Assembly: GCA_964443875.1 (NCBI GenBank)
Contig: CAYUET010000002.1
Coordinates: 70,082-134,081 of the forward strand
DNA length: 64,000 nt
Reading direction: 5' to 3'
DNA from: an uncultured bacterium
GTDB lineage: Bacteria; Auribacterota; JAFGBW01
Shown one piece after another: positions 43,613-62,732 of the stretch. Below the pieces are notes generated by a model, which was given only the letters and a program-made list of their open reading frames with translations, did not search any database and was not told the DNA's origin. The stretch's first letter is position 1. Each line of letters opens with the position of its first letter. A program made the position numbers and the translations under genes.

Positions 43613-46351
43613 CTATTTTTTAATCAGGTCAATTTCAATATTCAGAGGTTCGGCAAATTGATCCAGTACCTCTTTTTCAATAAAGGGAATATCCTGTTCC
43701 AGCTTAAAGGCAAGGTCTTTATTCTGACAGCGGAGTTTTCCGATTTTATACTGTCCATAGGAAAGCTTTTCAGGATTTTTATAGGTTACGATGATTTTTT
43801 TGCCCTGGAAAAGTGTCTGGACGCTGATTTCGCAGCTTTCATCAAACTGTTTTGCAAGCAGTTTCGGATTGAAGCTTAAATGGCCCATGATGCCGCGGAT
43901 GCCGAAAACCTCCAGGAGCATGGTCATGACAGTCCAGGCGGCAGAGCCTGTGATGTAGCAGTAACGCGCGCGGCCTTCGCCGTTGAAATATTCCGGAACG
44001 CAGGGGAAGAAAAGGCTTTTTTCAGTATTCTTCCACATTTTATAGATGGAGTGGAGGACCTCAAAACCCTCTTTTACAAGGCCTCTGCGGTAAAGTCCGT
44101 TGGCGAACATGACGTTCATGTGGCTGAAGAAGCTTCCGTTTTCCTTGTCTCCGTAATTGAAGGAAAAGGCGCGTCCCATGTTGAGCATCATTTTTCCGAA
44201 GTTGGTATTGAGCCTGAAGCCCTGGTGCTCCTTGTCTCTCAAAAGATCGCCTGCGGCCTTGAAGGCCTTTTTACACTGGGATTCAGTAGCCACGCCGGAC
44301 ATGATGGGGAAGACCTGACCGGTGAGGGTCATCTGTTCTTCATTATTAATCATTCCTTCAAGGCGCATTCCGTCGTTGTTGTAATAGCCGTTGAAATATT
44401 CGTGTTTTCCGGTAGAGATGAACTCATTGTCACGGATCTGTTTTTTGAGGGCCTCTGAATAGGTGTTCAGAATTTCAGAAAGTTCATTCAGATTAAAAGA
44501 AACCTGTTCCCCATTAATTCTTCCTTCTTCTACCTTAATGAAATAAGCCTGAAGCACAGCCTGCAGTTTTACGGGGTCGTTTAAAAAGACAGCGGGGATT
44601 CCGGGCTTGACCAGGGAGAGCATTTCCGAGGGAAGGGAAAGGGCGGGGATGTCTTTTTCCGCAAGAATGCCGCAGTAACGGGCCAGGGTTGCGAGGTTGG
44701 CTGCAAAGGCTGCGGAAAAGGGAACGGATTCGCCTTTGGCATGAGCCATGTCCAGACCGTCATTCCAGTCCGCATCTTCAAGCCGGAGATTTCCGTGTTC
44801 TCCGCGGTTGAAGAACTGGGTGAGGTTCTGAAGAAGCAGGTGGATAAAAATTTCACTTTTAACGACTTCATTATTTTTATTTTTAAGCCAGGTTCCGTCT
44901 TCTTTTTTCCAGTCCGGGTTGATTTTTTTGCTCCGGTGTGAAAAACGGTCCTGGAAAAAGGGTCTTTTTTCCAGAAGAATGGAATAATCGCCTGTCTGCT
45001 GAACATAGAGATCAATGGTCACTGTCGGCCATACGCCGTGATCCATCCAGGTCCTGGGAATGTTATTGCGGTCGGCAATGAATTCTCCGGGTTTAAGCCC
45101 GATAATGGTTGCATTGGAGCCGTCGATCCTGACTCCCTGAATGTTGTTCAAAAGGATGTCTCGTGTATCGGAAGGGTTGGTTAAAAGGATGCCCAGACAG
45201 TCCTGCCACAGGTCTCTCCAGCCTCTTCCTCCGCGGCCATAGCCGAAATCCGGAAGAAAGGAACAGCCGAAGATGCGGCGCATGACGGGCTGCAGGGAAA
45301 CCCAGACAAGCCAGTTGTTGAAGGCGGGATCTCCGGTCATGAAGACGAGCCGCTCAACCTGGTTTTTCCACCAGACCCTGGTTTCCTCAAAAACAGACAT
45401 GACCTTCCGGTCGGAATTGTAGCGTTCCAGAAGAGGCATCCAGTTCTCTTCCCGGTTATGAATTCCAAGAAGGATTGCAAATTGCCGGGATTCTCCGGGA
45501 TTAAGCGTAAAGGATTTGAAGCGCAGGGCCGCGATGCACTGCATGCCGTCTGTGTCTTTGGGATCTTCAAAGGCTTTGTCCGTATAGATCATTTCCGGGG
45601 TTTCCAGACTTCCGCCCTCGCCGATAAAGGCTTCAAGGTCGGAAACAACACCTGCAAGGGTTTCCCCTTCTGAAGAAAAGGCAAAGGCTGAATAATCATT
45701 GGCGCAGGGTTTGTGGCCTCTTTCATCAAAGGACATGGTCGGGCAGAGGATCACGCCGTTGGGGTGTTTTTTATTCCGGTTGAGCATGGTGGTCACCTGA
45801 CGGTGGTCCCTCAAATTATCAGCAGAACGGCCGTATAAAGGAATTGCAGCCGTAGGCAGAAGCGTCAGCGGGGCATCAGAAGTGTTGGTGAGCGTAATCA
45901 GACTGACTTCAAAAGGGTCTCCATTGGAAGGAACAAACATATCGGTTCGGGCTTTTAAGCCTGTTTTTTTATGGGCTCTTTCAGTGGTAAAATACCCCGG
46001 TCCGGCAAAGACATCCGTATTGCAGGCTTTCTGGCTTTTGGCTCTCTGAAAAGCTTCATCGGCACTGACCCCCGGGACAGACCAGATTTCCTTATCGTTG
46101 ATTTTGACCCAGAAATTCCTGGAATTTTTGGTTTGTAGAATGCTTTCGGATACCTGGGGTTCTGTTAAAAAGGAATTCTGGCCGGTTTTGATATCGCCTT
46201 TGAGCTCGGGGGTGACGGCGGACATCATTCCCTGCATATTGAAAAGAGGAAAGTAAAGCCGGTTGATACGGTTTGCATTTTTAACCGTGAATTCGCCTGT
46301 GGGTTTTTTTTCTTTTGCGGTAAAGTCCAGCTGCATTCTTTTTGAGGCCAT
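43613..46351 (-). CDS. GH94-family-like glycoside phosphorylase (cellobiose/cellodextrin/chitobiose phosphorylase-like)
   Basis: 912 aa. GRGGRGWRDLWQD parallels the GxGxGFRDSNQD motif. LRLEDADWNDGLDMA carries the catalytic-Asp DWND motif. ITGSAAW parallels the WLTGSASW motif of the GH94/GH65 six-hairpin fold. Confidence 0.6.
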   Translation of the reverse strand: MASKRMQLDFTAKEKKPTGEFTVKNANRINRLYFPLFNMQGMMSAVTPELKGDIKTGQNSFLTEPQVSESILQTKNSRNFWVKINDKEIWSVPGVSADEAFQRAKSQKACNTDVFAGPGYFTTERAHKKTGLKARTDMFVPSNGDPFEVSLITLTNTSDAPLTLLPTAAIPLYGRSADNLRDHRQVTTMLNRNKKHPNGVILCPTMSFDERGHKPCANDYSAFAFSSEGETLAGVVSDLEAFIGEGGSLETPEMIYTDKAFEDPKDTDGMQCIAALRFKSFTLNPGESRQFAILLGIHNREENWMPLLERYNSDRKVMSVFEETRVWWKNQVERLVFMTGDPAFNNWLVWVSLQPVMRRIFGCSFLPDFGYGRGGRGWRDLWQDCLGILLTNPSDTRDILLNNIQGVRIDGSNATIIGLKPGEFIADRNNIPRTWMDHGVWPTVTIDLYVQQTGDYSILLEKRPFFQDRFSHRSKKINPDWKKEDGTWLKNKNNEVVKSEIFIHLLLQNLTQFFNRGEHGNLRLEDADWNDGLDMAHAKGESVPFSAAFAANLATLARYCGILAEKDIPALSLPSEMLSLVKPGIPAVFLNDPVKLQAVLQAYFIKVEEGRINGEQVSFNLNELSEILNTYSEALKKQIRDNEFISTGKHEYFNGYYNNDGMRLEGMINNEEQMTLTGQVFPIMSGVATESQCKKAFKAAGDLLRDKEHQGFRLNTNFGKMMLNMGRAFSFNYGDKENGSFFSHMNVMFANGLYRRGLVKEGFEVLHSIYKMWKNTEKSLFFPCVPEYFNGEGRARYCYITGSAAWTVMTMLLEVFGIRGIMGHLSFNPKLLAKQFDESCEISVQTLFQGKKIIVTYKNPEKLSYGQYKIGKLRCQNKDLAFKLEQDIPFIEKEVLDQFAEPLNIEIDLIKK

Positions 46352-46527: not shown

Positions 46528-49008
46528 ATGGCCAGACAAATAATTTATATCCTGGTTTTTGCCGTGTCCTGCGGCTTCTGCCTGACGGGAAACTCCGTAT
46601 GGGGACTCAGTCCTCATTCTGTCATGGTTCAGTCTGAAGGCAGTGATTTTCGGGTGAATTATGACGAAGTGATTATCAGCGAGATTTCAAAGCTTGAAGA
46701 GGAATTGAAAAATCTGCCGGATAAGATTCAAAAGACTCCTGAGGATTATAAGGTTAAAATTGTTGAGGGCTTCACCCCTCACGGCAAGGATCTTTTGAAG
46801 CAGATGCTTAAGAGAGGGAAAATCACCCTCCTGGCCGCACCAGAGGGTACTCCGCTTAAAAATCTGGTGGAGGAGGTCGCAGATCCCAGAATGACAACCG
46901 TTTTCCGAATTTCCGACTACTACCTGGATCAGACTGTGAAATACAAGGCAACCCCCAGAGATGTTCACTGGGAGCTTTTGAAAAAAGATATTGCCAAACA
47001 TCTGGTAAAAAAACCTAACAAGAGGATTGTGGTGGAAGGCCCTTTTGCCCTTCAGGATGAGCTTTGGAACTACCTGGCCGGAGAGACGGGAGTTTTTGTT
47101 TTAAAACTTTTTGTCAATTACCCTAAAAAAATCCGAAAGGGGAAACTGGGCATTGCGGATGATAGTAAATCCGTGGAAAAATGGAACCTGATCCGTAAGA
47201 ATGAGCTGAATGATATTTATCCGCAGCTTCCCCATGCTCATTTTGTGGTTAATCTTGCGCCTGCCCAGGAATTTTATCCCTATTCCAACTTAAGGCTTAT
47301 GAATCTGTCAGACAAATCCTTTCATTCCAAAGACCGCTTTGCCAATGCCTTTCTGTCCATTCCTGACAACGGAACAGTGGATATTGTCACGGCCGGGGGG
47401 GGAGGAGATGTTTACGGGGCCATTCTGCAGGCCATGTCCCTGAAGGAAGTGCTTCTTAAGGCCGGTAAAAAAAATATTCGCTTCAGGGTTTTTACCTCGA
47501 ATTTGAAAAGGGGAAGCGAGAATCCCAAGGGCGGTCCGGCAGACATGAAAAAAATTCTCTACCCTGTAAAGGGCAAACTGAAATCGATTCCCCCCTGTAA
47601 AAACAGTCGTCATTTTTATCGTATTTTTGAGGGCATTGAGGTTGTTTCCTCTGTGAGCGATGATGAGAGGCGCGATATAGTTATCGATGGTAAAGAGCTT
47701 ACCACCCGGGTGGCTTTAAGTGACGGGGAAATTGTTGAGAAGGCAAAATCTTTAGGGATAGAAGTGCTTATGGCGGATGCGGCGGTCAGCGGAAAGGATC
47801 TGGCAGAGGATTACGAAGGGATGACATCAAAGGAATCCGTTTTTACCATAATCGGAGATATGGGAGGGGATATTGCGGCCCGTTTTCCTGTTCCCCGGAA
47901 CGGTAAAAATTATCCTGAGAAAGATGTGCGTTCCCCCAATACGGATACCCTGTTTCTGGATATGGCCTATCATTTGAAAAAAATCCAGCTTTCACGCGGC
48001 ATTGAGGATAAAACCTGGGTATCCATTGCCGCCTACGGCGGTGACGGGGAGCTTGGATATACCGGGCTTCAGTATCTGAAGGAAATTATAGGCTCTGAAG
48101 AGCTGCAGGCTGTGTTTTATAATCTGAAATTTCTTACGGCTCACAAATCGATCCTGGACCGTCTGCTTCAGTGGAATATTCACAGCGAGGTTTCCGGAAA
48201 TCTGATCAACAATATCCGGAAATGGATAGAGGAATATAAACCCAATGAATATGAAGAAAAAAGATCCCCCTGGAGCTTTGATCAGGCTTCACAGATCAAA
48301 GGTCCTCAGCAGACCATCCGCAACGGCACAAGAACCGTTGTAATGCCTGTGGAATATGTGAATACGATTTATGTGGCTCCTGAAACCTTAAGAGAGCGCA
48401 TTGACGACCAGATCAGCACTGAAGGAAAAGGGTGGTTTGATATTGACCAGGAACTCCGGTCAAAGTGTGAGCATAATCCCGTGGGAGAGCCCACGGGATT
48501 ATGCACGGAAATGACGGATCCCAACAATATCCGTGACCGTAAAAATGTCAATGTAAGACTTCTGGTGGATCATGTGAGAAAAGTATCCGGCTGCATGACC
48601 TTTAAAGAGGCCGTGCAATGGCTTTTCAGAAAGGGTGTTCTCGGGGGCGGAATCAATGCTTATCAGTTTGAAAAAGGGCTTCTTTTTCTCAAGCTGAGCG
48701 AGGTCTATCCCTCTGAGATTTTAATTCAGAATGAACTGCAGAGCCTGTCTGAAATATTTGTTTTACTGGAAACGCTGAATAAAAAGGAAGTGAATCCTAA
48801 GGAAAGGGAAAGAGTTCAGGCGCTTTATCATTTATTGAGTCAGTACATTCTGTACAAGGTCGGCGGGTTTGAGGAAACAGTCAAAGAGGATTTGAAGCTT
48901 ATGCCTTTTATTGCAGAATACTACCCTGTGCTTTATTTTCTGCTCGCAAACCGTGGTCCTTTGGAGGAACTGAAAATTTCCGGCGAAGCGGTTTCAAAGG
49001 CGGCCTAA
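46528..49008 (+). CDS. Large hypothetical secreted protein (826 aa)
   Basis: It has a signal peptide (MARQIIYILVFAVSCGFCLTGNSVWG) and three Gly-rich acidic loops (TAGGGGDVYG, IGDMGGDIA, AAYGGDGELGY). No family was recognised. Confidence 0.5.
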   Translation: MARQIIYILVFAVSCGFCLTGNSVWGLSPHSVMVQSEGSDFRVNYDEVIISEISKLEEELKNLPDKIQKTPEDYKVKIVEGFTPHGKDLLKQMLKRGKITLLAAPEGTPLKNLVEEVADPRMTTVFRISDYYLDQTVKYKATPRDVHWELLKKDIAKHLVKKPNKRIVVEGPFALQDELWNYLAGETGVFVLKLFVNYPKKIRKGKLGIADDSKSVEKWNLIRKNELNDIYPQLPHAHFVVNLAPAQEFYPYSNLRLMNLSDKSFHSKDRFANAFLSIPDNGTVDIVTAGGGGDVYGAILQAMSLKEVLLKAGKKNIRFRVFTSNLKRGSENPKGGPADMKKILYPVKGKLKSIPPCKNSRHFYRIFEGIEVVSSVSDDERRDIVIDGKELTTRVALSDGEIVEKAKSLGIEVLMADAAVSGKDLAEDYEGMTSKESVFTIIGDMGGDIAARFPVPRNGKNYPEKDVRSPNTDTLFLDMAYHLKKIQLSRGIEDKTWVSIAAYGGDGELGYTGLQYLKEIIGSEELQAVFYNLKFLTAHKSILDRLLQWNIHSEVSGNLINNIRKWIEEYKPNEYEEKRSPWSFDQASQIKGPQQTIRNGTRTVVMPVEYVNTIYVAPETLRERIDDQISTEGKGWFDIDQELRSKCEHNPVGEPTGLCTEMTDPNNIRDRKNVNVRLLVDHVRKVSGCMTFKEAVQWLFRKGVLGGGINAYQFEKGLLFLKLSEVYPSEILIQNELQSLSEIFVLLETLNKKEVNPKERERVQALYHLLSQYILYKVGGFEETVKEDLKLMPFIAEYYPVLYFLLANRGPLEELKISGEAVSKAA

Positions 49009-49879: not shown

Positions 49880-50308
49880 ATGAATGGAACTTATGCTTAC
49901 TACAATCCGTTAAGGGAGCTGCACTATTTCCAGAAACAGCTCAGTGATTTATTTGAGGATTTTAATGAGCGTCGTGGTGAATATCCCCTTGTGAATATCT
50001 GGGGGAATTCTGAAGGTCTTCTGGTCACAGCAGAGCTTCCTGGTCTGGATGTGAAAGACATTCAGCTGACCGCCAAAGGGGATACTCTGACTCTGGAAGT
50101 TGAAAAAAAATCAGAGGTCATTGATTCACAGGGGATCTGTATTCACAGGAATGAAAGGGAAGGTGATCCCTTTATTAAAACAGTGAGGCTTCCCTATGAA
50201 GTAAACGGGGAGAATATTTCCGCAAAATATTCCAATGGTGTTTTAAAGGTAACACTGCCTAGGGCAGAAGCGGGAAAACCGAGAAAAATAACCGTAACAC
50301 AAGAATAA
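49880..50308 (+). CDS. Small heat-shock protein (Hsp20/alpha-crystallin family), 1 of 3
   Basis: It has an alpha-crystallin domain (LVTAELPGLDVKDIQLTAKGDTLTLEV...GVLKVTLPR). The RBS is AAAGGAG. Confidence 0.85.
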   Translation: MNGTYAYYNPLRELHYFQKQLSDLFEDFNERRGEYPLVNIWGNSEGLLVTAELPGLDVKDIQLTAKGDTLTLEVEKKSEVIDSQGICIHRNEREGDPFIKTVRLPYEVNGENISAKYSNGVLKVTLPRAEAGKPRKITVTQE

Positions 50309-50335
50309 TAACCGACAACAAAAAGGAGGCTGCAC

Positions 50336-50731
50336 ATGAATAACGATGCCAACAATAATAAAAAAGAAAATACCCGGCCTGAACTCACACAAGACAAACC
50401 TGTATTCACCCCGCTCACAGATATTTATGAATCAACGGAGTCGATTTATGTGGTTTGTGATGTTCCCGGGGTGCAGGAAAAAAACATTGATATTTCCCTT
50501 GAAAACGATGTGCTGACCATTACCGCCTACCAGGATGAGGAGCAGTACGAAGGGTACCAGGCCCTGTACAAAAGTTATGACAGGGGAATTTTTCAGAGAT
50601 CCTTCACGCTTTCTCAGACCATAGACAAGGCAAAAATCAAGGCCACTGTCAAACAGGGAGTCTTAAAGATTGAGCTTCCCAAGTCCGAAGAGGTGAAGCC
50701 TAAGAAGATATCTGTAGAAATTGAAAAATAA
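50336..50731 (+). CDS. Small heat-shock protein (Hsp20 family), 2 of 3
   Basis: VVCDVPGVQEKNIDISLENDVLTITA...GVLKIELPK. The RBS is AAAGGAGG. Confidence 0.85.
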   Translation: MNNDANNNKKENTRPELTQDKPVFTPLTDIYESTESIYVVCDVPGVQEKNIDISLENDVLTITAYQDEEQYEGYQALYKSYDRGIFQRSFTLSQTIDKAKIKATVKQGVLKIELPKSEEVKPKKISVEIEK

Positions 50732-50760
50732 AAATTCTTAAGAACAAGGAGGTGATTTCC

Positions 50761-51276
50761 ATGTTTAAGAATCTTATCCCATGGAAAAAAGGAAAAATGG
50801 AGGCGGCTCGGAAGAAGGAAGATTCATTTATGAATTTTCATAAACAGATGGATCAAATGTTTAATCAATTTCTGAGAGATTTCGATATGCCTGGTTTTGC
50901 TTTTCCTCCACTCAACAGATTTGAAAAGGGATGGATGAAGGCGCCTGAGGTGGATGTGGATGAAAATGAAAAGGAAATCCGGGTTACTGCCGACCTTCCG
51001 GGGATTGATGAGAAAGATGTGGATGTGTCGCTTGAAGGAAACAGTCTGACCCTCAAAGGGGAGAAGAAGGAGGAGAAGAGTTCAGGCCAATCGAAGGGAC
51101 GCCTGACGGAAAGGCGCTACGGCTCCTTTGAAAGAAGGATAGCAGTACCTTCGGATCAGATAGATCCGGCTAAGATCAGGGCTTCCATGAAAAAGGGAGT
51201 ACTGACTGTTCTTCTTCCCAAAATCAGAGGCAGGCAGGAGAATCAAAAAAAGATAGCGATTCAGACGGAGGATTGA
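50761..51276 (+). CDS. Small heat-shock protein (Hsp20 family), 3 of 3
   Basis: VTADLPGIDEKDVDVSLEGNSLTLKGEKK...GVLTVLLPK. The ATG at 50761 follows an AAGGAGGTGA RBS. The listed ORF from 50752 starts at a GTG inside that RBS. Confidence 0.85.
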   Translation: MFKNLIPWKKGKMEAARKKEDSFMNFHKQMDQMFNQFLRDFDMPGFAFPPLNRFEKGWMKAPEVDVDENEKEIRVTADLPGIDEKDVDVSLEGNSLTLKGEKKEEKSSGQSKGRLTERRYGSFERRIAVPSDQIDPAKIRASMKKGVLTVLLPKIRGRQENQKKIAIQTED

Positions 51277-52318: not shown

Positions 52319-52460
52319 GGGTTTAATTCCTCGCAGCTTGCTGCGGCTTTGTCATTGCGAGGCTTTGCGAAGCAATCTAGATGAGAGAGATTGCTTCGTC
52401 CCAAAGCGTCCTCGCAATGGCGTATTTGATACCTCGCAGCTTGCTGCGGGGTAGTTCATT
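52319..52460. repeat. Structured intergenic repeat element, copy C (variant core)
   Basis: Its termini match copies A and B (GGGTTTAATTCCTCGCAGCTTGCTGCGGCTTTGTCATT ... ACCTCGCAGCTTGCTGCGGGGTAGTTCATT). The core is a perfect nested double hairpin: CATTGCGAGG/CCTCGCAATG outside and CGAAGCAATCT/AGATTGCTTCG inside. Confidence 0.7.
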
Positions 52461-52743: not shown

Positions 52744-55700
52744 ATGAAAAGAGTTCTGTTCTTTTTTTTCATGCTTTATTCCGGTTTCTGTTTTTCAGCT
52801 ACGTACACAGTAAGCAGCGACAGCGAGGCAGAATTCGCAGTCGGTACGCTGAGAGGATCTTTGCACCAGGCGGAGGCAAATCCGGGTCCGGATACCATTG
52901 TGTTTGATAGAGATATGACTATTAGTTTAACAAATATTAGCCGTGTTTTTGTTTATAATAATGAGGGGGTTACCATTGATGCCCAGGGGTACAATGTGAT
53001 CATCGACGGAACGGGTATGAATCTGGATCCTGGATGGCCTGCAGTTGGAATATGGCTTGTGGACACCGGGCACCTTTGGGGGGGGGGGCAGTTAGGCGGT
53101 AATGCGACAATAAGGGGAATTACTTTCAGAAATTGTGCCTATGGGGGCGCTTTGGTTTCATCCGGATCAGCGAATAATTCCTTTATTGATTGTACATTTC
53201 ATAACAATGGAGCCAGCGGTATTGTTGTCGATGGTACTGATGCTTCTTTGGACGGAAGTCAGAATACCTCCAATATCACGATTCAGAATTGTGTTTTTTA
53301 TAACCAGGCGCATAGCGGTGTTTATATTAAGAGGACTGAGGATGTTTCCATTGAAAACTGCGTAAGTTACAACAATACCCAGAATGGTTTTCTGATTGCT
53401 GAAAGTTCAAATGTAGATATCAGCAATTGCAGAACCTATTCCAATACCCAGAGCGGAATCTGGTTTATTTCTGATTGCCACAACAATTCTGTAACCGGAT
53501 GCGAAATCGGGGGAAGCGCAGGAGGCAACGGCTGGCCGGGTGTTATCATTTCAGGAACCTGCACGGACAACACCTTAAGAAATAATTCCATTACCCACAA
53601 TGGGGCTGAGGGAATAAAGATTGATGACCATTGCGAAACCACGACCATAGAAAATAATGTGATTGCTGAAAATATTTATTCAGGAATTCTGGTTACGGGT
53701 AGTTCAGGTTCCAGTACCATTATCAACAACACCCTTCTTGGAAATCAGCAGAACGGGATCTGGCTGATGGGGGCTTCCAACAATCGAATCCATAACAACA
53801 CCATTGGAACAAATTCTTCCGGGGCTGTATACGGCAATCGCTGGTGCGGGGTTCTGGTTTCAAGCGGATCAACGGATAATTTTATAGGTGGTGATACAGC
53901 GAGTCTCGGGAACCTCATTGTGAACAACCTTGCAGAAGGGGTAAAGGTGGATGGCTGGGATACGATCCGGAACCTGGTCCGATTCAATACCTATTATTCC
54001 AATGCGCAGGGCGGATACAGGAATGTGAACGGTGCCAACCAGGCGCTTCCAGTTCCTTACATTTACCCCCCGGCAACCTATACTTCTCCCCAGCAGGTTA
54101 CTGTTCACGGGCTGGGTACTCCCGGGACAGTGGTTGACATCTATATCAGTGATTCTCAGACTGATAAAACCCAAGCTCGGTATTATAAGGGAACTGTCGA
54201 GCCCAATGCGGACGGCGAGTTTTCCTTCACCTTTGATTATGACCATCCGGGGCAGATCATTACAGCTGTCGCACGCGACGGAGTCCGGAATTCCAGCGGC
54301 TTTGACGTGCAGATAACAGAAGGCGGCCTGACGGGAACTGTTCTGGATTCCAAGACCAAGATGCCGGTTTATGATGCGGAAGTTTATCTTTATGATTCCC
54401 AAAACCGGATTTATACCGCCACACGCACAGGCACGGACGGAAAATTTACTTTTGCACTTCTTCAGGGGACTTTTTCCATTGTTGTGAAGAAACAGGGGTA
54501 TCGCTTTCCTTCCATACTTACGGAGTCGCTTTCCGGTGCGGCCAAAGGGGAGGTTTTCAGTTTTCAATCTTCTCTGAATCTGGAAATTCCTGTGGATCAG
54601 GGGTATCCGCTGGATGTTAATCTGACCCTGGAAAAGGATAAGGTTTCTGCCGGAGATCCCCTTGGTGTTCAACTGGCAATAAACAATACTTCGACGGATG
54701 ATTATTCAAAAGTGAATCTTCGCTATTATCTTCCTCCCACCCTGAAACTGGCATCGTCCGCTCCTGTCCAGGTGAATGGAGAAACGGTCAGCCTGCAGAC
54801 GGAAACAGACGGTTTTATTCTGCCTCTTTCCAATATCAGGGCAGGAGATAACTTTACCATTCCCCTCGTTTTCTGGGTGTCCGGAGGGGCCGAGGAAAAA
54901 GAGTTTATGATCGGGGCAAGGGCCTATCAGGTTCGCGGCGGAAGTGCTCTTTATTTAAGTGACCTCCGCCTTAAGGAGGTTGCGGTTGTGCCGGATGAGT
55001 TCATGGAAAATTCAACCCTGATCGGCAAGGTCTTTCTGGATTCCAATGCAAACGGTATCCAGGATTACGGAGAAAAGGGAATTCCCAACGCGGTGATTTA
55101 CTCCGAGCAGGGACTTATCATTACGACGGATAAAAACGGTTTATATTCTGTGCCTGACATCACAGAAGGTTCCCATGTGTTCATGGTTAAAAGAAACTCT
55201 TTACCCAAAGGCATGACTCTGGAAAAAAATTCCATGATGGTTCACGTGCGTAAAGGTTCCATGCACAAGGTGAATTTTGCAGTGAAGGCGGAGAGTGCGG
55301 ATATCTCTGTGGATACCCCGGCTTCCACGATCATTCTTCAGGAGGAGATGAATCCTCCCGTTGCCTTTACCGAGGTTAATCTGCGGAAATATGAGAATCA
55401 GGGATTCAGAAAAACCGGAGAGGACCAATACCAGATGGAATTTGATATTGTGTCGAATTCGAGGCTTTATATCAAAGATTGGGATTTTGTCTTAAGGACC
55501 GTTTCGGATCAGAGGGAGGTGTTTGTAAAATCCTCCCAGCAAATTTCAATGCTTCCCAAACAATTTATAGTGCCCCTGAACGGGCGTCAGCTTTATGAAC
55601 TCAACGGAAAAAATCTGGAATATTTTTTAACAATCACCTATTCCAATGGAGTAAAGACAGAGACCCCGGCTCAGAAAATTAGAATTGAGCATAAGGGAAG

Positions 55701-58700
55701 CGGAATAATCCCGGGTTTGCTGCAATTTGAGGCCAGAAACCCGCTGAAATTGAAAACAACCCCGAATTTACCCAAACAGGGAGCTATTTCTGTTTCCGGG
55801 TATACCAGGGCTGATTCATCGCTGATCGTGAGCTGTGTTTCCCATGAGGAAATTCTTTTTGAACAGCTGATTGATTCGGATTCCAAGGGGCATTTTGAGC
55901 ATTCCTTTCTGGTGCCTTTCGGAGAATACGAAATTCGTCTTACCAATGAAAACGAAAAGGCCCCGTTTTATCAGAAATCCATTACTTTAAGCTCCAGCCA
56001 GTTGATTTTGGTCGCCATGGCGGAAGAGGAAATCGGAAAGCTCAGCAGCACCGGAAATATTGAGGTTGCCGGCAACAGTGATAAGTTTGATGAGGAATTA
56101 TATAACGAAGGCAAAGCGGCTTTTTACCTGAAAGGAAAAGTGAAGGGAAAGTATCTGCTTACCCTTTCCTATGATTCGGAAAGAGGAAAAACTCAGGATG
56201 ATGAGCTGTTTAATTATCTTGATCCGGATAAGTATTATCCCATCTACGGGGATTCCTCACAGACCGATTATGATGCAACAGACAGCGACGGAAAGCTTTT
56301 TCTGATGGTGGAATGGGACAGATCCAAAGCGCAATGGGGAAATTTTCAGACCCGTCTTAACGACGAATCTCTTTTGTTTTACAACCGTTCTCTTTACGGC
56401 GGAAAAGTGGAATACACCTCCTTATCTTCAACAAAGTTTGGAGATCCGGACATGCAGGTCATCCTTTTCGGATCTTCTTCACTTTCCCGTCAGGGCTTCA
56501 ATACCATTGAATCCACCGGGGGCTCTCTTTATTATTTGAGCCGGAGTGATATTGTGAAAGGCAGCGAGCAGGTGTTTTTAGAAGTCAGGGATACTGTTAC
56601 CGGGGAAGTCGTTGAAAAGATCGATCAGATCCGCAGTGTGAATTATGAGATGGATTATGACTCGGGCCGCATTGTTTTTACCTCTCCGGTTCCCAGAACT
56701 ATGAGGACCAGCCGTGTTACGGATACCAGCCTGAATTTCAGAAATCAGGTGTATATTGTGGTGACCTATGAATACAAACCGGACTCCCCGATTGAAGATG
56801 CAAATGCCGGCTTAAGAGTGGAAAAGGCTATCGGCGATCATGTTTCCGTGGGCACGACTTTAATTACAGAGGATAATGGAAGCAATGATAATGCTGAACT
56901 TAAATCTGTGGATGTGACTTCGCATATTACAGAAAACACGAAAATCCGCATGGAGGCGGCGGCAACGGATCAATATAATCCGAGGACGCTTTCCTCTCAG
57001 AACGGGGGCTTATCCTTTTCCCAGAATTCTTTGGGACGTGCGGATGATTCAGGGCATGCCTATTCCGTAGTGGTTTCCAACCAGAAGGATCAGAAAAGGG
57101 ATTTGTCTGTGTATTATACCAAAAGAGAGTCCGGATTTATTAATGAACGGGACTACAACGAAGCCGGTACGGAAAAAACAGGAGCCAACGCCCAGGTCAG
57201 GGTCTCTGAAAAGGTGAAACTTTTTTCCGAACTTTTCCATGAAACCACCGATGATGAAACCCAGATAGCCAAGGGTTATAAGAAGAAACTGGAAGGCCGC
57301 GCCGGAGTTGCCTGGCAGGCCCTTGAGAAACTGAGACTGGAAACGGAATATCACGGCATCAAAAAAGAAGTGCCGGATGATACGATCAATCTCTGGGGGC
57401 TGGCCGGGTATTATGATTTTTCGCAGAAAATGAGCGCTTTTCTGAAGCAGCAGGTCAGCGGGGCAGAAGATGACATGACCGCCACTCAGGGGGGACTGGA
57501 ATATCAGGTGACTGAACGTTTGCGTCTGGGACTTTCCCATACGGTCGGTGAAGAAGGGGATTATTCACAGGTCAATGCCCTGTGGGCCGTGGATAAAACA
57601 AGAGAGTTTTACATGGAGGCCCAGAGCGACGGATTAAACCAGGGCAGCGGAAATGATACCGAGCTGGTCGTGGGAATGAATGATGTTTTAAACCGTTATT
57701 CCTCCATGTATACGGAATATAAAATCCGCAGCAGCGGGGATTATTCCTATACCACGATCGGTTCAGGTTACCGTCATAAAATCAGTGATCTGACTCAGAT
57801 GTATATCAACTATGAAAATGAAACCCGTGACGATGACAGGGACAGCAATGTACTGGGAGGCGGGATCAGCTACTGCAAACCGGACAAAGCCTATCTTTCA
57901 ACCGGGGTGGAAGTCAGAAGGGATGAAACAACAGATGAGATCGAGCAGTGGCTCACCCAGAACAAGGCCAAATGGACCTTTGACTGCGGTCTTTCCCTGT
58001 TTGGAAAAGTGAATTATTCGCAGACAGACAATGAAACCCTGGACATCCGGCAGGCGGACTATAAGGAATACGCAACAGGAATAGCCTACAGGCCCGTGCT
58101 TCTGGATGTGGTTAATTTTCTTTTCAAATATACCCGTCTGACCGACCAGAATCCTGCGGAAAGAGAAGAGCCGGAATGGCTCTCCGAGCACAAGACCGAT
58201 GTGTATTCCGGTGAATTTTTATGGGATATCTGCAAATGTGTTCAATACTTTTTCAAATACGCCTGGAAACAGTCGGATTATGAATACACGTTTTCAGAAG
58301 AGGAATTTGAATCCGAGATCTCCCTGTGGATCAATCGCATCAATGTCTATATCACGCAGAATATAGGAACAGCCCTGGAATACCGGGTAAAGGATTACCA
58401 GACCCTGGATGAGAAAAAAGAGGGTTATGCTGCGGAATTGTTTTATGACCCTGTGGAAAATTTCAGGGTCACGGTAGGTTATAATTTTACGGATTTTTCA
58501 GACAATATGCAGTCCTTCAATGATTATGAAAACTATGGCCCTTATATTCGTTTCACCGGTAAGGCTGCCTTTGATGAACTGGAGATGCTTTCTCCCTTTA
58601 AGAAGGAATATTACAACTGGAGACTTTTCAAGAGTATGCCTGAAGACTTTAAAATTTCCGGGAAATTGGACCTGGCCTTTGGCTTTGTGGACAGGGATTT

Positions 58701-60909
58701 TGAGTGGAATCTTTCAAACATGGACCTCTGGGAAAAGAATTGGCGCTACCTTTACGGAGAAGATAAGGAAAATACCTATAATCCGGGTATGTACAGCCAG
58801 TTAAGAGTGAATACGGAATATCCTCTTTCGGATGAATGGGCGCTCTATTTTGATTTTTCAATTGATCCCCATATGGTCGCTTCCAAGTCAGATACTGTCC
58901 ATGTGACGAGTGAATCCGGGGACTCTGCGGAGGTGACTTTTTATTACTGGGCGTCAAATGACAAAACGATCTCGCGAAGTGTACGAACAAAAAATGGAAA
59001 TGCCTTTAATACGGGCGAACAGAATGTTCATGATAACACCATCGATTCTTATCAGATAGAGACCAGCTGGGGGGATACTTTTACCATTCCTGAAACAAAG
59101 CTTGATGAACAGATTGTACCCTGGAAGACACTTGCTTTAGGTTATAAGTCAGATGAGAATTATTTTAAGTTGAATGTACTGGGCGATATGACCGCCACCT
59201 ATAGCAGTGATGATCCCCTGAGACTGGTTGGAAACCGGGATTTCTGGCAGCCTCATTCCTGGCTTTATTTCTGGCAGCCCGGCCAGTATTATTACGGGAC
59301 TCAGGCCTTCGGGAAGGGAAGGCTGGATGACTCTCTTATTTTTTACAACCGTAACAGTTTTGCCCAATGGCTCACCTATGTGCGGGGCGCACAGTTTGCA
59401 ACGAACGTAGAGGGTCTCGGCCGTTTTGAAGGAGCCGTGGCAACGCCCATTACCCAGTGGGATCTTTATGACGGATACACGGACGTCAATAATGTGAGCG
59501 GAGCCTTCCGCTATAAGTCAGCCCTTGATGCAGAGGCCCCTGTTCAGATCGGAAGTACTTATGCCTTCAGGGCCGGGTACAACGATGAAGAGCTGGATTT
59601 TATGAACCAGGTTTTTGCAGGAGATTGCTATTTTACACTGTGGAATGATTATAAGGTAACTATGGAATATGCGGTCAGCAGCACAGAGACGGATAAGACC
59701 TCGGATATCTACGCTGAGAAATATATTGGTCAGGCTTTTAAACTGAATGTGGAACGCAAGGTTGATTTTGCTTCTTTTGAGCACACCTTAAGCTTGGATG
59801 CCTCGGGGATGACCAAGGATTTTATGTCCGCAGGGTCGGATTACCGTTTTACTTCCCTTGATCAGTTCTGGTCAAATCACCTTGATTTTTATGACCATCC
59901 CCAGTGGTTCAAGGATGAGGTGCTTCCTTGCAGGCTGGGTAACGGGCTTCGTGAAAACCGGAATGTATACAAGGCTGCTTGTATCTCCCAGAACAGTGAT
60001 AAGGTGACCAACCTTCTGCAGTTCATGTATGTGGAAAGCAATGAGGAGCAGGAATTCCAGGAAAGAAGGCTCCGTGAAGAGCTGACAGTTCCTGTGGAGG
60101 ATCTTTTTACCCTGCAGTTCATGGTATTGAACAACCATTACCCTGAAACTGAAGCCGGGATTGAGCCTCTGGCGAATCAGACCGATGTCGCCAAATATCT
60201 TTCGCCCAACGCGGATGAAAGGGATATTCTGAATAATTCCATTCTTGCCGGAGAGGATCCCTCCATAGGAGCTTACTCCACGGGAATCAAGGTGCCGCTG
60301 TTTGGAAAGAAGATAGAGTTGGTGGGTGTTTATGAATATACCAATAATTACGGGGATCAGTTCCCCCAGTTTATCATGCAGGATACATCCTATGGAAACC
60401 TTGTCAGCAACGACGACGGGCGTTTTGATTCCCCCGTCACCTTTCTGGATAGTCAGCAGATTTTTGACCTTCCTTCCTATGATTATTACAATATCTACAG
60501 AATGAAACTGTTTTTCTACCCTTGGGAACCGGTAACCCTTCAGGTGGCCTATACCAAGAATGAGAATAAATTTGCTTCGGGTATTGACGACAATATCAAT
60601 CATTTATTTTTTGAAGCCAAGTACCAGGATCCGGATAAAAAGTACCAGACGAGGATGAATTATACCCGTTCCAAGATGATGAATGTTCCGGATTATATGG
60701 AAACAGGAGACCTGGAATATGAGTCCCACGATAATTTTTTCACGGAGTTTGCCTACTTTTTTTCAAAGGATTCCAAGATGTATGTGCATTATGGTATTTT
60801 TGCAGGCATGACCGATTATACTTCAACCCCTTACCTGGTTTCTCCCTGGTCTTTGCCTACGCTGGATACCCGGAATATTGTTCGTGTGACCTATTCTAAA
60901 AAGTTTTAG
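52744..60909 (+). CDS. Giant secreted or surface protein (2,721 aa): parallel beta-helix repeats, Cna-B/CarboxypepD_reg-like and DUF11-like domains, and a long C-terminal putative beta-barrel region
   Basis: It has a signal peptide (MKRVLFFFFMLYSGFCFS). Residues about 100-430 hold roughly 10 PbH1-type repeats (NxxxNGxxI/V...). Cna-B-like modules follow (GTVLDSKTKMPVYDAEVYLYD...TDGKFTF and GKVFLDSNANGIQDYGEKGIPNAVIY...TDKNGLYSV), then a DUF11-like repeat. About 1,700 aa rich in Tyr/Asp/Asn/Gly follow, ending VRVTYSKKF. Confidence 0.8.
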   Translation: MKRVLFFFFMLYSGFCFSATYTVSSDSEAEFAVGTLRGSLHQAEANPGPDTIVFDRDMTISLTNISRVFVYNNEGVTIDAQGYNVIIDGTGMNLDPGWPAVGIWLVDTGHLWGGGQLGGNATIRGITFRNCAYGGALVSSGSANNSFIDCTFHNNGASGIVVDGTDASLDGSQNTSNITIQNCVFYNQAHSGVYIKRTEDVSIENCVSYNNTQNGFLIAESSNVDISNCRTYSNTQSGIWFISDCHNNSVTGCEIGGSAGGNGWPGVIISGTCTDNTLRNNSITHNGAEGIKIDDHCETTTIENNVIAENIYSGILVTGSSGSSTIINNTLLGNQQNGIWLMGASNNRIHNNTIGTNSSGAVYGNRWCGVLVSSGSTDNFIGGDTASLGNLIVNNLAEGVKVDGWDTIRNLVRFNTYYSNAQGGYRNVNGANQALPVPYIYPPATYTSPQQVTVHGLGTPGTVVDIYISDSQTDKTQARYYKGTVEPNADGEFSFTFDYDHPGQIITAVARDGVRNSSGFDVQITEGGLTGTVLDSKTKMPVYDAEVYLYDSQNRIYTATRTGTDGKFTFALLQGTFSIVVKKQGYRFPSILTESLSGAAKGEVFSFQSSLNLEIPVDQGYPLDVNLTLEKDKVSAGDPLGVQLAINNTSTDDYSKVNLRYYLPPTLKLASSAPVQVNGETVSLQTETDGFILPLSNIRAGDNFTIPLVFWVSGGAEEKEFMIGARAYQVRGGSALYLSDLRLKEVAVVPDEFMENSTLIGKVFLDSNANGIQDYGEKGIPNAVIYSEQGLIITTDKNGLYSVPDITEGSHVFMVKRNSLPKGMTLEKNSMMVHVRKGSMHKVNFAVKAESADISVDTPASTIILQEEMNPPVAFTEVNLRKYENQGFRKTGEDQYQMEFDIVSNSRLYIKDWDFVLRTVSDQREVFVKSSQQISMLPKQFIVPLNGRQLYELNGKNLEYFLTITYSNGVKTETPAQKIRIEHKGSGIIPGLLQFEARNPLKLKTTPNLPKQGAISVSGYTRADSSLIVSCVSHEEILFEQLIDSDSKGHFEHSFLVPFGEYEIRLTNENEKAPFYQKSITLSSSQLILVAMAEEEIGKLSSTGNIEVAGNSDKFDEELYNEGKAAFYLKGKVKGKYLLTLSYDSERGKTQDDELFNYLDPDKYYPIYGDSSQTDYDATDSDGKLFLMVEWDRSKAQWGNFQTRLNDESLLFYNRSLYGGKVEYTSLSSTKFGDPDMQVILFGSSSLSRQGFNTIESTGGSLYYLSRSDIVKGSEQVFLEVRDTVTGEVVEKIDQIRSVNYEMDYDSGRIVFTSPVPRTMRTSRVTDTSLNFRNQVYIVVTYEYKPDSPIEDANAGLRVEKAIGDHVSVGTTLITEDNGSNDNAELKSVDVTSHITENTKIRMEAAATDQYNPRTLSSQNGGLSFSQNSLGRADDSGHAYSVVVSNQKDQKRDLSVYYTKRESGFINERDYNEAGTEKTGANAQVRVSEKVKLFSELFHETTDDETQIAKGYKKKLEGRAGVAWQALEKLRLETEYHGIKKEVPDDTINLWGLAGYYDFSQKMSAFLKQQVSGAEDDMTATQGGLEYQVTERLRLGLSHTVGEEGDYSQVNALWAVDKTREFYMEAQSDGLNQGSGNDTELVVGMNDVLNRYSSMYTEYKIRSSGDYSYTTIGSGYRHKISDLTQMYINYENETRDDDRDSNVLGGGISYCKPDKAYLSTGVEVRRDETTDEIEQWLTQNKAKWTFDCGLSLFGKVNYSQTDNETLDIRQADYKEYATGIAYRPVLLDVVNFLFKYTRLTDQNPAEREEPEWLSEHKTDVYSGEFLWDICKCVQYFFKYAWKQSDYEYTFSEEEFESEISLWINRINVYITQNIGTALEYRVKDYQTLDEKKEGYAAELFYDPVENFRVTVGYNFTDFSDNMQSFNDYENYGPYIRFTGKAAFDELEMLSPFKKEYYNWRLFKSMPEDFKISGKLDLAFGFVDRDFEWNLSNMDLWEKNWRYLYGEDKENTYNPGMYSQLRVNTEYPLSDEWALYFDFSIDPHMVASKSDTVHVTSESGDSAEVTFYYWASNDKTISRSVRTKNGNAFNTGEQNVHDNTIDSYQIETSWGDTFTIPETKLDEQIVPWKTLALGYKSDENYFKLNVLGDMTATYSSDDPLRLVGNRDFWQPHSWLYFWQPGQYYYGTQAFGKGRLDDSLIFYNRNSFAQWLTYVRGAQFATNVEGLGRFEGAVATPITQWDLYDGYTDVNNVSGAFRYKSALDAEAPVQIGSTYAFRAGYNDEELDFMNQVFAGDCYFTLWNDYKVTMEYAVSSTETDKTSDIYAEKYIGQAFKLNVERKVDFASFEHTLSLDASGMTKDFMSAGSDYRFTSLDQFWSNHLDFYDHPQWFKDEVLPCRLGNGLRENRNVYKAACISQNSDKVTNLLQFMYVESNEEQEFQERRLREELTVPVEDLFTLQFMVLNNHYPETEAGIEPLANQTDVAKYLSPNADERDILNNSILAGEDPSIGAYSTGIKVPLFGKKIELVGVYEYTNNYGDQFPQFIMQDTSYGNLVSNDDGRFDSPVTFLDSQQIFDLPSYDYYNIYRMKLFFYPWEPVTLQVAYTKNENKFASGIDDNINHLFFEAKYQDPDKKYQTRMNYTRSKMMNVPDYMETGDLEYESHDNFFTEFAYFFSKDSKMYVHYGIFAGMTDYTSTPYLVSPWSLPTLDTRNIVRVTYSKKF
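53078..53088 (+). repeat. Homopolymeric G11 tract inside the giant gene (codons about 112-115, WGGGQ)
   Basis: Eleven consecutive G were counted directly in the sequence. They sit in-frame within the 5' part of the 2,721-aa ORF. Confidence 0.9.
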
Positions 60910-60971
60910 TCCGGATCATGAAACAGAAAATTTCTTCAGTGATGAAGAACGCTATATAAAAGGAGTGGATT

Positions 60972-61250
60972 ATGCTGACAGCCATTATTTTAATTCAGGT
61001 TGAAAGAAAAAAAGTAAATGAAGTTGCGGATAAACTTCTGGAAATCAAGGGTATTACTGAAGTGTATTCGGTGAGCGGGCACTGGGATCTTGTGGCGGTC
61101 CTGAGGGTCTCCCAGAATGAACAGCTGGGAGAGGTTGTCACCTCTCATATTACCCAGATTGAGGGGATTCACAAAACAGAAACCATGGTTGCCTTTAAAG
61201 CCTTTTCAAAACACGACCTGGAATGCATGTTTGACATCGGGAACGCATAG
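60972..61250 (+). CDS. Stand-alone Lrp/AsnC-type ligand-binding (RAM) domain protein
   Basis: 92 aa. IILIQVERKKVNEVADKLLEIKGITEVYSVSGHWDLVAVLRV matches the AsnC_trans_reg C-terminal domain. There is no HTH. The RBS is AAGGAG. Confidence 0.6.
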   Translation: MLTAIILIQVERKKVNEVADKLLEIKGITEVYSVSGHWDLVAVLRVSQNEQLGEVVTSHITQIEGIHKTETMVAFKAFSKHDLECMFDIGNA

Positions 61251-62692: not shown

Positions 62693-62732
62693 AAAAGGGG
62701 GGGGGATCAATAAGATTTCCCCCTTTTTTTTT
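62693..62732. terminator. Bidirectional intrinsic terminator (AAAA-G9-loop-C5-T9)
   Basis: It lies 18 nt after the OMP gene stop. A G-run pairs with CCCCC and is flanked by A4 upstream and T9 downstream. Confidence 0.6.

What the first reader, a model, noticed from the sequence alone, without database searches (positions are those of the whole stretch)
53078..53088. G11 homopolymer in the 5' coding region of the 2,721-aa surface protein gene, a candidate phase-variation switch
Eleven consecutive G encode Gly-Gly-Gly at codons about 113-115 (WGGGQ). Tracts of 9 or more G/C in the 5' part of surface-protein genes are classic slipped-strand-mispairing contingency loci, as seen in Neisseria, Haemophilus and Campylobacter. 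A +1 or -1 change here terminates translation within about 30 codons and switches the giant protein OFF.

Other G8-G9 runs occur in the window, at 47395 in the 826-aa secreted protein gene, 51932 in cbpA and 62697 in a terminator. The genome therefore tolerates G runs, but this is the longest and the only one placed as a 5' switch.
Basis: partly seen in the sequence, partly recalled or inferred. Interest (0 to 1): 0.65.

Follow-up and report, generated by a model that had tools for sequence, protein, structure and literature searches.

The report
G11 run in giant envelope gene
A run of eleven G really does sit in frame near the start of a very large outer-membrane protein gene of an uncultured bacterium and could switch the gene off by slippage, but such a run is close to what chance allows, is missing from related genes, and has not been shown to vary.

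Summary
G11 lies at 53078-53088, in frame in ORF 52744-60909 (2,721 aa), read TGG GGG GGG GGG CAG (W112-G113-G114-G115-Q116). It is the longest G/C run in the window. One base less stops translation 1 codon later (116 aa). One base more stops it 4 codons later (119 aa), not about 30.

The protein has a signal peptide, an N-terminal beta-helix, Ig-like domains and a roughly 950-aa domain modelled as an outer-membrane-type barrel.

The phase-variation reading is mechanistically plausible. C. jejuni capA, an autotransporter, switches on an in-frame G11. But it is unproven:
- Dinucleotide shuffles give a G11 in 10 of 100 windows.
- Synonymous-codon shuffles give a run of 11 or more in 5.7% of windows.
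- GGG makes up 24% of Gly codons.
- In the 45-50% homologue the same WGGG peptide is TGG GGG GGC GGA (G7). A 59% homologue has no run.
- No strain-level sequence across the tract could be retrieved.
- Predicted OFF products are absent from the protein collection, which is weak negative evidence.

Most likely this is a lineage-specific, intrinsically slippage-prone tract created by codon drift at a Gly-rich loop. Whether it is a selected contingency locus is open. Read-level tract-length data would decide. Interest is low to moderate.

The parts
53078..53088 (+). G11 homopolymer, in frame (ON length). It consists of the last two bases of TGG (W112) plus three GGG codons (G113-G115).
52744..60909 (+). 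Intact 2,721-aa ORF for the giant envelope protein. It is identical to P0020, which lies on an NCBI contig of 222 kb.
52744..52803 (+). N-terminal signal-peptide-like segment MKRVLFFFFMLYSGFCFSAT. The cleavage site was not determined. It contains a T8 run at 52762-52769.
   Evidence: Read from the sequence. The assignment as a signal peptide is inference.
53093..53095 (+). TAG stop reached after a 1-nt deletion (G10). The product is 116 aa.
53100..53102 (+). TAA stop reached after a 1-nt insertion (G12). The product is 119 aa.
52801..54063 (+). Right-handed parallel beta-helix domain, about aa 20-440. The tract encodes part of a low-confidence loop (residues 109-115, pLDDT below 50) between strands 101-105 and 121-124.
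   Evidence: Pfam Beta_helix and NosD. AF2 model with pLDDT 83. Foldseek hits to AlgE4/AlgG epimerases, phage tailspikes and the PfbA adhesin.
55744..58590 (+). Conserved all-beta domain, aa 1001-1949, made of long antiparallel strands. It ends ...YIRFTGKAAF and is outer-membrane-barrel-like.
   Evidence: AF2 pLDDT 73. Foldseek hits are only outer-membrane barrels (MtrB, SlpA, LptD, SprA, FimD, TonB-dependent receptors) at low TM-scores of 0.11-0.24. Alignments.
53068..53088 (+). Canonical G-quadruplex motif GGGCACCTTTG11. It is one of only two such motifs in the window.
   Evidence: Regular-expression scan and ViennaRNA fold with G4 allowed. This is a prediction only.

Best explanation
The G11 is a genuine, in-frame (ON) mononucleotide run. 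It is produced by three consecutive GGG codons after a TGG codon and encodes Trp-Gly-Gly-Gly. That peptide lies in a flexible loop at the first coil of the N-terminal beta-helix of a 2,721-aa envelope protein.

The run is intrinsically prone to slipped-strand mispairing during replication. A change of -1 or +1 nt puts a stop 1 or 4 codons downstream and leaves a 116- or 119-aa fragment. A second slip restores the frame. Mechanistically it therefore behaves like a poly-G ON/OFF switch.

Its origin is most simply lineage-specific synonymous drift at a Gly-rich peptide, not long-term selection for switching. The truncation and the frame are shown in silico. Actual slippage, its rate and any benefit are inferred.
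For: - The tract, its frame and the stops.
- The length of 11 gives a gap-free alignment of ...WLVDTGxLWGGGxLGGNATI... with the 45-50% homologue P0021/L003, so the assembled length is correct.
- That homologue encodes the same WGGG as TGG GGG GGC GGA, a G7 run.
- The 59% homologue P0205/L009 has a similar upstream sequence and signal peptide but reads TGG CCC CCT TGG GGA AGA, with no run.
- GGG makes up 24% of Gly codons, so three in a row has a probability of about 1.4% per GGG tripeptide. There are 7 runs of 3 or more Gly in the window.
- Shuffle tests give 10 of 100 (dinucleotide) and 5.7% (synonymous).
- The control G8 in the AGGGGD motif at 47395 is replaced by GGG GGC or GGG GGA in relatives at 89-91% aa identity. 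G runs in Gly runs therefore come and go by synonymous change.
- The loop has pLDDT below 50.
- Measured instability of G11 tracts in C. jejuni is 1.6e-3 to 4.1e-3 per division, mostly deletions (PMC3401435).
Against: - The codon-shuffle probability of 0.057 per window is low enough that chance is not comfortable.
- The placement at 4% of a giant envelope-protein gene, with immediate stops in both alternative frames, is exactly the pattern of known contingency genes such as capA.
- No read-level or strain-level data were available, so neither slippage nor its absence was observed.
- The mismatch-repair status of the organism is unknown.
Confidence: 0.5

Rival explanations
1. This is an evolved contingency locus. 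The tract is maintained by selection so that a fraction of cells lacks the giant surface protein. That would be bet-hedging against phages, predators or other agents that use the protein as a receptor, or against the cost of making a 300-kDa protein.
For: - It is a G11 run, in frame, at codons 113-115 of 2,721, with stops 1 and 4 codons after a shift.
- The product has a signal peptide, a beta-helix of adhesin or polysaccharide-enzyme type, and an outer-membrane-barrel-like domain.
- There is a precise precedent. C. jejuni capA is a 120-kDa autotransporter that is ON at G11 and OFF at G10 or G12 (PMC3401435).
- SSRs near N-termini are enriched where phase variation is used (PMC3315296 and PMC2831843).
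- The codon-shuffle probability is 0.057.
- The N-terminal domain diverges much faster than the C-terminus among relatives: 59% aa identity in L009 against 89% in L010-L012. It is not known whether those contigs come from the same relative.
Against: - The tract is absent or interrupted in both available homologues.
- There is no excess of long G/C runs in the window beyond shuffles.
- The other coding G8 runs sit in a chaperone gene and a DUF1152 gene at conserved Gly motifs, so G runs are simply tolerated here.
- The predicted OFF products of 116-119 aa are not in the collection of 15 billion proteins. This is weak negative evidence.
- No tract-length polymorphism was observed.
Confidence: 0.3
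2. The run is a harmless by-product that is stable in practice. Efficient mismatch repair keeps slippage so rare that the run has no phenotypic consequence.
For: - The same statistics apply as for the best explanation.
- The gene is intact in the only full-length assembly.
- In the MMR-proficient meningococcus, poly-G phase-variation frequencies are 10 to 100 times lower than in C. jejuni, at 1e-4 to 1e-5 (PMC3401435, introduction).
Against: In every bacterium where they have been measured, G/C runs of 9 or more are orders of magnitude more mutable than average sequence, and mutability rises with length (PMC3401435 and PMC3315296).
Confidence: 0.1
3. The run is an assembly or sequencing artefact. 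The true sequence would have a different length or an interrupted run.
For: - Homopolymers are error-prone in sequencing.
- No independent assembly across the tract was retrieved. The Logan contigs of the same population stop at 52340 and restart at 60363.
Against: - The length of 11 keeps an 8.2-kb ORF open.
- It reproduces, without a gap, the WGGG peptide of the homologue.
- The flanking Logan contigs are 100% identical to the window.
- The contig break at 52340 coincides with an intergenic repeat, not with the tract.
Confidence: 0.05
4. The element acts at the nucleic-acid structure or RNA level. Options are a G-quadruplex on the non-template strand or in the mRNA (GGGCACCTTTG11, or a two-tetrad G4 within G11 itself), or transcriptional slippage or recoding.
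For: - It is one of only two canonical G4 motifs in 64 kb.
- ViennaRNA with G4 allowed places a quadruplex on the run and lowers the MFE by 14-16 kcal/mol.
Against: - The evidence is purely predictive.
- Two-tetrad G4s are weak.
- The motif is not conserved in the homologues.
- To my own knowledge, bacterial transcriptional slippage is best documented for A/T runs.
- Both alternative frames close at once, so no recoded product exists.
Confidence: 0.03

Closest known systems
Campylobacter jejuni capA poly-G phase variation (Bayliss et al. 2012, PMC3401435)
   Same: Both have an in-frame G11 inside the coding region of a large outer-membrane protein with an N-terminal passenger-like part. In capA, ON is G11 and OFF is G10 or G12. 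The mechanism is slipped-strand mispairing.
   Different: - capA switching was measured, at 1.6e-3 per division, in a species without functional mismatch repair and with 29 such loci. Here nothing has been measured.
- The genome here has 44% G+C, where such runs arise more easily.
- The protein here is 2,721 aa and has no autotransporter barrel domain.
Poly-G/C contingency loci of Neisseria and Haemophilus
   Same: They use a mononucleotide run in the 5' coding part of a surface-protein gene, and frameshifts truncate the product. This rests on my own knowledge plus the introduction of PMC3401435.
   Different: Those tracts are polymorphic among strains and over-represented genome-wide in host-adapted pathogens. 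Neither property could be shown here, and the organism is an uncultured environmental bacterium.
Listeria monocytogenes inlA 5' poly(A) tract, and 5' homopolymeric tracts in general (Orsi et al. 2010, PMC2831843)
   Same: A homopolymer near the 5' end of a surface-protein gene gives reversible inactivation by frameshift.
   Different: That case involves A/T tracts of about 7 nt at codon 8. [quoted passage not shown]
Classical (type Va) autotransporters
   Same: The domain order is similar: signal peptide, then an N-terminal right-handed beta-helix, then a C-terminal beta-barrel-like region ending in an aromatic residue.
   Different: - There is no Pfam autotransporter barrel.
- The barrel-like domain is about 950 aa, followed by a further 772-aa domain.
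- The nearest sequence relatives are DUF11/SdrD/OmpA-type giant proteins of Omnitrophota, Planctomycetota and Deltaproteobacteria MAGs.

Membership tests
Simple-sequence-repeat contingency (phase-variable) locus | Mononucleotide run of about 7-9 nt or more within the ORF or promoter | tested here: met
   G11 at 53078-53088 inside ORF 52744-60909
Simple-sequence-repeat contingency (phase-variable) locus | A length change of one unit shifts the frame and abolishes the product | tested here: met
   G10 gives 116 aa and G12 gives 119 aa. G8 and G14 stay in frame. The downstream in-frame restarts lack a signal peptide.
Simple-sequence-repeat contingency (phase-variable) locus | Tract-length polymorphism within a population or among strains | tested here: inconclusive
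   - The flank pattern with a variable gap gave 0 hits in JGI metagenomes.
- OFF products are not in the protein collection.
- Strain-level contigs (97.6% nt, L007) cover only the 3' end.
Simple-sequence-repeat contingency (phase-variable) locus | Tract present, often at varying length, in orthologues of related lineages | tested here: not met
   L003/L004 read TGG GGG GGC GGA (G7). L009 reads TGG CCC CCT TGG GGA. Only distant homologues (45-59% aa) were available.
Simple-sequence-repeat contingency (phase-variable) locus | Excess of long tracts over a composition or codon-shuffled null, and enrichment in 5' ends or surface genes | tested here: not met
   In the window only: 10 of 100 dinucleotide shuffles and 5.7% of codon shuffles reach a run of 11 or more. 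Runs of 8 or more number 3 observed against 1.54 expected (P = 0.19). They sit at 4%, 35% and 61% of their genes. The whole genome is not available.
Simple-sequence-repeat contingency (phase-variable) locus | Measured high-frequency, reversible ON/OFF switching | not testable with these tools
   This needs a culture or reporter, or deep read data.
Type Va autotransporter | C-terminal 12-strand translocator barrel (Pfam Autotransporter domain) | tested here: not met
   Pfam finds only Beta_helix, NosD, CarboxypepD_reg and SdrD_B. The barrel-like region is about 950 aa and resembles MtrB, SlpA, LptD and SprA only loosely.
Type Va autotransporter | Signal peptide plus N-terminal beta-helix passenger | tested here: met
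   The signal peptide was judged by eye.
G-quadruplex-forming element | G3+N1-7 repeated four times on one strand | tested here: met
   53068-53088. Formation in vivo is not testable here.

The most novel reading that the evidence does not exclude
An uncultured, apparently free-living environmental bacterium uses a poly-G slippage switch to turn a 2,721-aa outer-membrane protein on and off. The protein belongs to an uncharacterised family with a beta-helix head, Ig-like spacers and a giant barrel-like anchor. If so, contingency-locus bet-hedging would extend beyond host-adapted pathogens, for example as defence against phages or predators that use the protein as a receptor.
Probability: 0.3. 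Interest if true: 0.5.

Novelty: new member of a known kind. Interest (0 to 1): 0.27.

Why it matters
If the tract really varies, it would be a documented poly-G phase-variable gene in an uncultured environmental lineage. It would also point to the giant envelope protein as something the cell sometimes benefits from hiding, such as a phage or predator receptor, an adhesin, or simply a costly product.

It would give a cheap read-level marker (G10, G11 or G12) for following population heterogeneity in metagenomes.

If the tract does not vary, the finding is a reminder about genomes of mid G+C content. Long G runs arise by chance at Gly-rich motifs, so they should not be called contingency loci on sequence alone.

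Tried and rejected
Searches that did not deliver tract sequences:
- The exact flank pattern with a 7-16-nt gap found 0 hits in JGI metagenomes.
- Protein-guided scans of the GTDB genomes, first with the whole protein and then with the N-terminal alignment, found no relatives. Neither this genome nor that of the ACD homologue is among the species representatives.
- The N-terminal alignment against the JGI metagenomes returned only the known ACD contig AMFJ01035223.
- Homologue searches with aa 1-399 and 1-140 missed even the self protein. The word index seems to under-sample long proteins, so 'no N-terminal fragments' is weak evidence.
- An exact look-up of the giant protein in the contig index found nothing. 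The NCBI contig is not indexed there.
A cluster look-up then found none of them.
- Small intergenic ORFs, tried as handles to fish out the 5' contig, were not on record.

Other dead ends:
- Sample accessions were not found in the literature. The taxon therefore remains unknown.
- Rfam gave no hit in the window.
- No promoter or terminator of note lies near the tract.
- No tandem repeats of note lie in the gene.

Readings considered and rejected:
- A poly-G artefact of two-colour sequencing. The run is in the middle of an ORF and reproduces a conserved peptide.
- Programmed frameshifting. Both alternative frames close immediately.

Full report
**Observation**

The sequence reads ...CACCTTT GGGGGGGGGGG CAGTTAGGCGGTAAT..., with exactly eleven G at 53078-53088. 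It is the longest G/C homopolymer in the window. The next longest are G9 at 62697 and G8 at 47395 and 51932. There is no C run of 7 or more.

The run lies in ORF 52744-60909 (+), which is open for 2,721 codons. It is read TGG GGG GGG GGG CAG, that is W112-G113-G114-G115-Q116.

In silico, G10 gives ...WGGGS* (116 aa, TAG at 53093-95). G12 gives ...WGGGAVRR* (119 aa, TAA at 53100-02). G8 and G14 stay in frame.

In OFF variants the downstream frame has only internal ATG or TTG starts. These have no signal peptide and no obvious Shine-Dalgarno sequence. OFF would thus be a true loss of envelope function. This last point is inference.

**What the gene is**

- Pfam finds Beta_helix/NosD (aa about 170-370), CarboxypepD_reg (529-587) and SdrD_B (762-828). 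It finds nothing for aa about 1000-2721.
- The N-terminus, MKRVLFFFFMLYSGFCFSA..., looks like a signal peptide. This was judged by eye.
- An AlphaFold2 model of aa 1-479 (pLDDT 83) is a right-handed beta-helix. Its closest solved folds are alginate C-5 epimerases, phage tailspikes or depolymerases, and the pneumococcal adhesin PfbA.
- Residues 109-115 (GHLWGGG) have pLDDT below 50. They form a loop between strands 101-105 and 121-124.
- A model of aa 1001-1949 (pLDDT 73) is all-beta with long antiparallel strands. Nearly all of its Foldseek matches are outer-membrane barrels: MtrB, Deinococcus SlpA, LptD, SprA, FimD and TonB-dependent receptors. The TM-scores are low, 0.11-0.24.
- This domain ends ...YIRFTGKAAF, exactly where shorter homologues stop. 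Those homologues come from Omnitrophota, Planctomycetota and Deltaproteobacteria MAGs and are annotated DUF11, OmpA or TIGR01451.
- A further 772 aa have no Pfam or PDB match. They end ...VTYSKKF.

'Surface or outer-membrane protein' is therefore reasonable. The side of the membrane on which the beta-helix sits is not known. The protein is not a classical autotransporter.

**Chance**

- G+C is 43.8%.
- In dinucleotide-preserving shuffles of the window, 10 of 100 contain a G11 or C11, with a mean of 0.19.
- For G8 words, 8 were observed against 4.9 expected, and 17 of 100 shuffles reach that number.
- GGG is 24% of Gly codons, so three in a row has P of about 0.014. The window has 7 runs of 3 or more Gly.
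- Shuffling synonymous codons over all 46 window CDS gives a run of 11 or more in 5.7% of 600 trials and a run of 9 or more in 43.5%. The mean number of runs of 8 or more is 1.54, against 3 observed (P = 0.19).
- The run is thus mildly unusual for one window. On a genome of several Mb, a few such runs are expected without selection. This is an extrapolation.
- The three coding runs of 8 or more lie at 4%, 35% and 61% of their genes. Two of them sit at conserved Gly motifs of housekeeping-type proteins.

**Relatives**

The protein is in NCBI (P0020, a 222-kb contig, unnamed). Its nearest full-length homologue is P0021 (45% identity, 2,778 aa), from the Rifle ACD_79 bin.

The peptide block WP.VG.WLVDTG.LWGGG.LGGNATI aligns without a gap. 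This also shows that the assembled tract length is right. There the DNA is TGG GGG GGC GGA, a G7 run, and it is identical in two assemblies.

An exhaustive profile search found one more N-terminal relative, P0205. It has 59% aa and 67% nt identity, with a similar upstream sequence and signal peptide. Its 528-bp contig reads AAT TGG CCC CCT TGG GGA AGA, with no run and a loop one residue longer. The tract is therefore specific to this lineage.

Closer relatives do exist. Neighbouring genes occur at 100% identity (Logan SRR8925805 and SRR8925774), at 97.6% (ENA ERZ28615146) and at about 80-91%. Only the 3' end of the giant gene is on those contigs. The C-terminus is 89% identical where the only N-terminal relative is 59%.

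The Logan contig upstream ends at 52340, inside an intergenic repeat.

As a control, the G8 at 47395 (conserved AGGGGD) is GGG GGC GGA GGA or GGG GGA GGA GGA in relatives at 89-91% aa identity. G runs at Gly runs appear and disappear by synonymous change.

**Search for OFF alleles**

- The four predicted truncated products (116-119 aa) are not in the collection of 15 billion proteins.
- A search with aa 1-140 returned only P0205.
- The flank pattern with a variable gap gave no metagenome hit.

These negatives are weak. Cut gene products of short contigs are evidently not in the searchable set, and the word index missed even the self protein.

**Mechanism**

From the literature, poly-G/C tracts mutate by slipped-strand mispairing at rates that rise with length.

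- In C. jejuni, rates for G8, G9 and G11 are 4e-4, 1.2e-3 and 4.1e-3 per division.
- The native G11 of capA, a 120-kDa autotransporter, switches ON to OFF at 1.6e-3. OFF alleles are G10 or G12.
- G11 tracts mostly lose a base.
- In the MMR-proficient meningococcus, frequencies are 1e-4 to 1e-5 (PMC3401435).
- Homopolymers near 5' ends are proposed as a general means of inactivation (PMC2831843).
- Codon-shuffle tests separate selected enrichment from structural constraint (PMC3315296).

By analogy, the tract here should generate OFF cells at an elevated and reversible rate. That is inferred, not shown.

**Verdict**

The best-supported reading (confidence 0.5) is a real, ON-phase, intrinsically slippage-prone tract. 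It arose by codon drift at a Trp-Gly-Gly-Gly loop. It works like a poly-G switch but shows no sign of being selected as one.

The rivals are:
- a selected contingency locus (0.3);
- a run that is effectively stable and inert (0.1);
- an assembly artefact (0.05);
- a G-quadruplex or RNA-level role (0.03).

If real, the kind is already known: a new member of poly-G phase variation. Read-level tract-length counts against control runs would settle it.

Noticed in passing
window 52762-52769: A T8 run lies inside the signal-peptide codons (FFFF, codons 6-9) of the same giant gene. It is a second homopolymer in the 5' end, and it is broken up in the homologue L009.
   Followed up: partly
window 55744-60909 (aa 1001-2721 of the giant protein): About 1,700 aa have no Pfam or PDB sequence match.
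- aa 1001-1949 model as a very large outer-membrane-barrel-like all-beta domain. It is shared at 25-32% identity with 1,500-3,400-aa DUF11/SdrD/OmpA-type proteins of Omnitrophota, Planctomycetota and Deltaproteobacteria MAGs.
- The last 772 aa are shared only with the ACD_79 homologue.
This looks like an uncharacterised family of giant envelope proteins.
   Followed up: partly
window 52322-52346 and 52425-52449: Two copies of a 25-nt repeat, TTTAATTCCTCGCAGCTTGCTGCGG, lie in the 442-bp spacer upstream of the giant gene. The repeat contains the hairpin CGCAGC-TT-GCTGCG. The Logan contig L001 ends inside the first copy, which suggests a dispersed repeat that breaks assemblies.
   Followed up: partly
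window 53068-53088 and 44630-44648: These are the only two canonical G-quadruplex motifs in the window. The first is the upstream GGG plus the G11. G11 is also exactly the minimum length for a two-tetrad G4 with 1-nt loops.
   Followed up: partly
window 47395-47402; L013 and L014: The G8 in the DUF1152 protein gene encodes the conserved AGGGGD motif. It is not kept in relatives at 89-91% aa identity, which use GGC or GGA as the second codon.
   Followed up: yes
window 62693-62729: The G9 run is the 5' arm of an intrinsic-terminator-like hairpin (G9...C5 followed by T9) after the 236-aa gene. Slippage there would alter the length of the stem.
   Followed up: partly
window 60909-60972: No terminator-like site lies between the giant gene and the 92-aa Lrp/AsnC-ligand-domain gene 63 bp downstream. 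The two may be co-transcribed, so premature termination in OFF variants could be polar on the downstream gene.
   Followed up: no
window 13961-15226: This gene encodes a DinB/Pol IV-type Y-family polymerase (IMS and IMS_C domains). In E. coli such polymerases promote -1 frameshifts in homopolymer runs. That statement rests on my own knowledge and was not tested here.
   Followed up: no
window 49880-51276: Three tandem Hsp20 genes are followed by a cbpA-like DnaJ gene. Together they form a heat-shock cluster immediately upstream of the giant gene.
   Followed up: no
L009 481-528: The only N-terminal relative ends in a premature TGA after 158 aa, and the last 30 or so bases are unrelated to the window. 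This is either a chimeric end of a low-coverage scaffold or a truncated allele.
   Followed up: no
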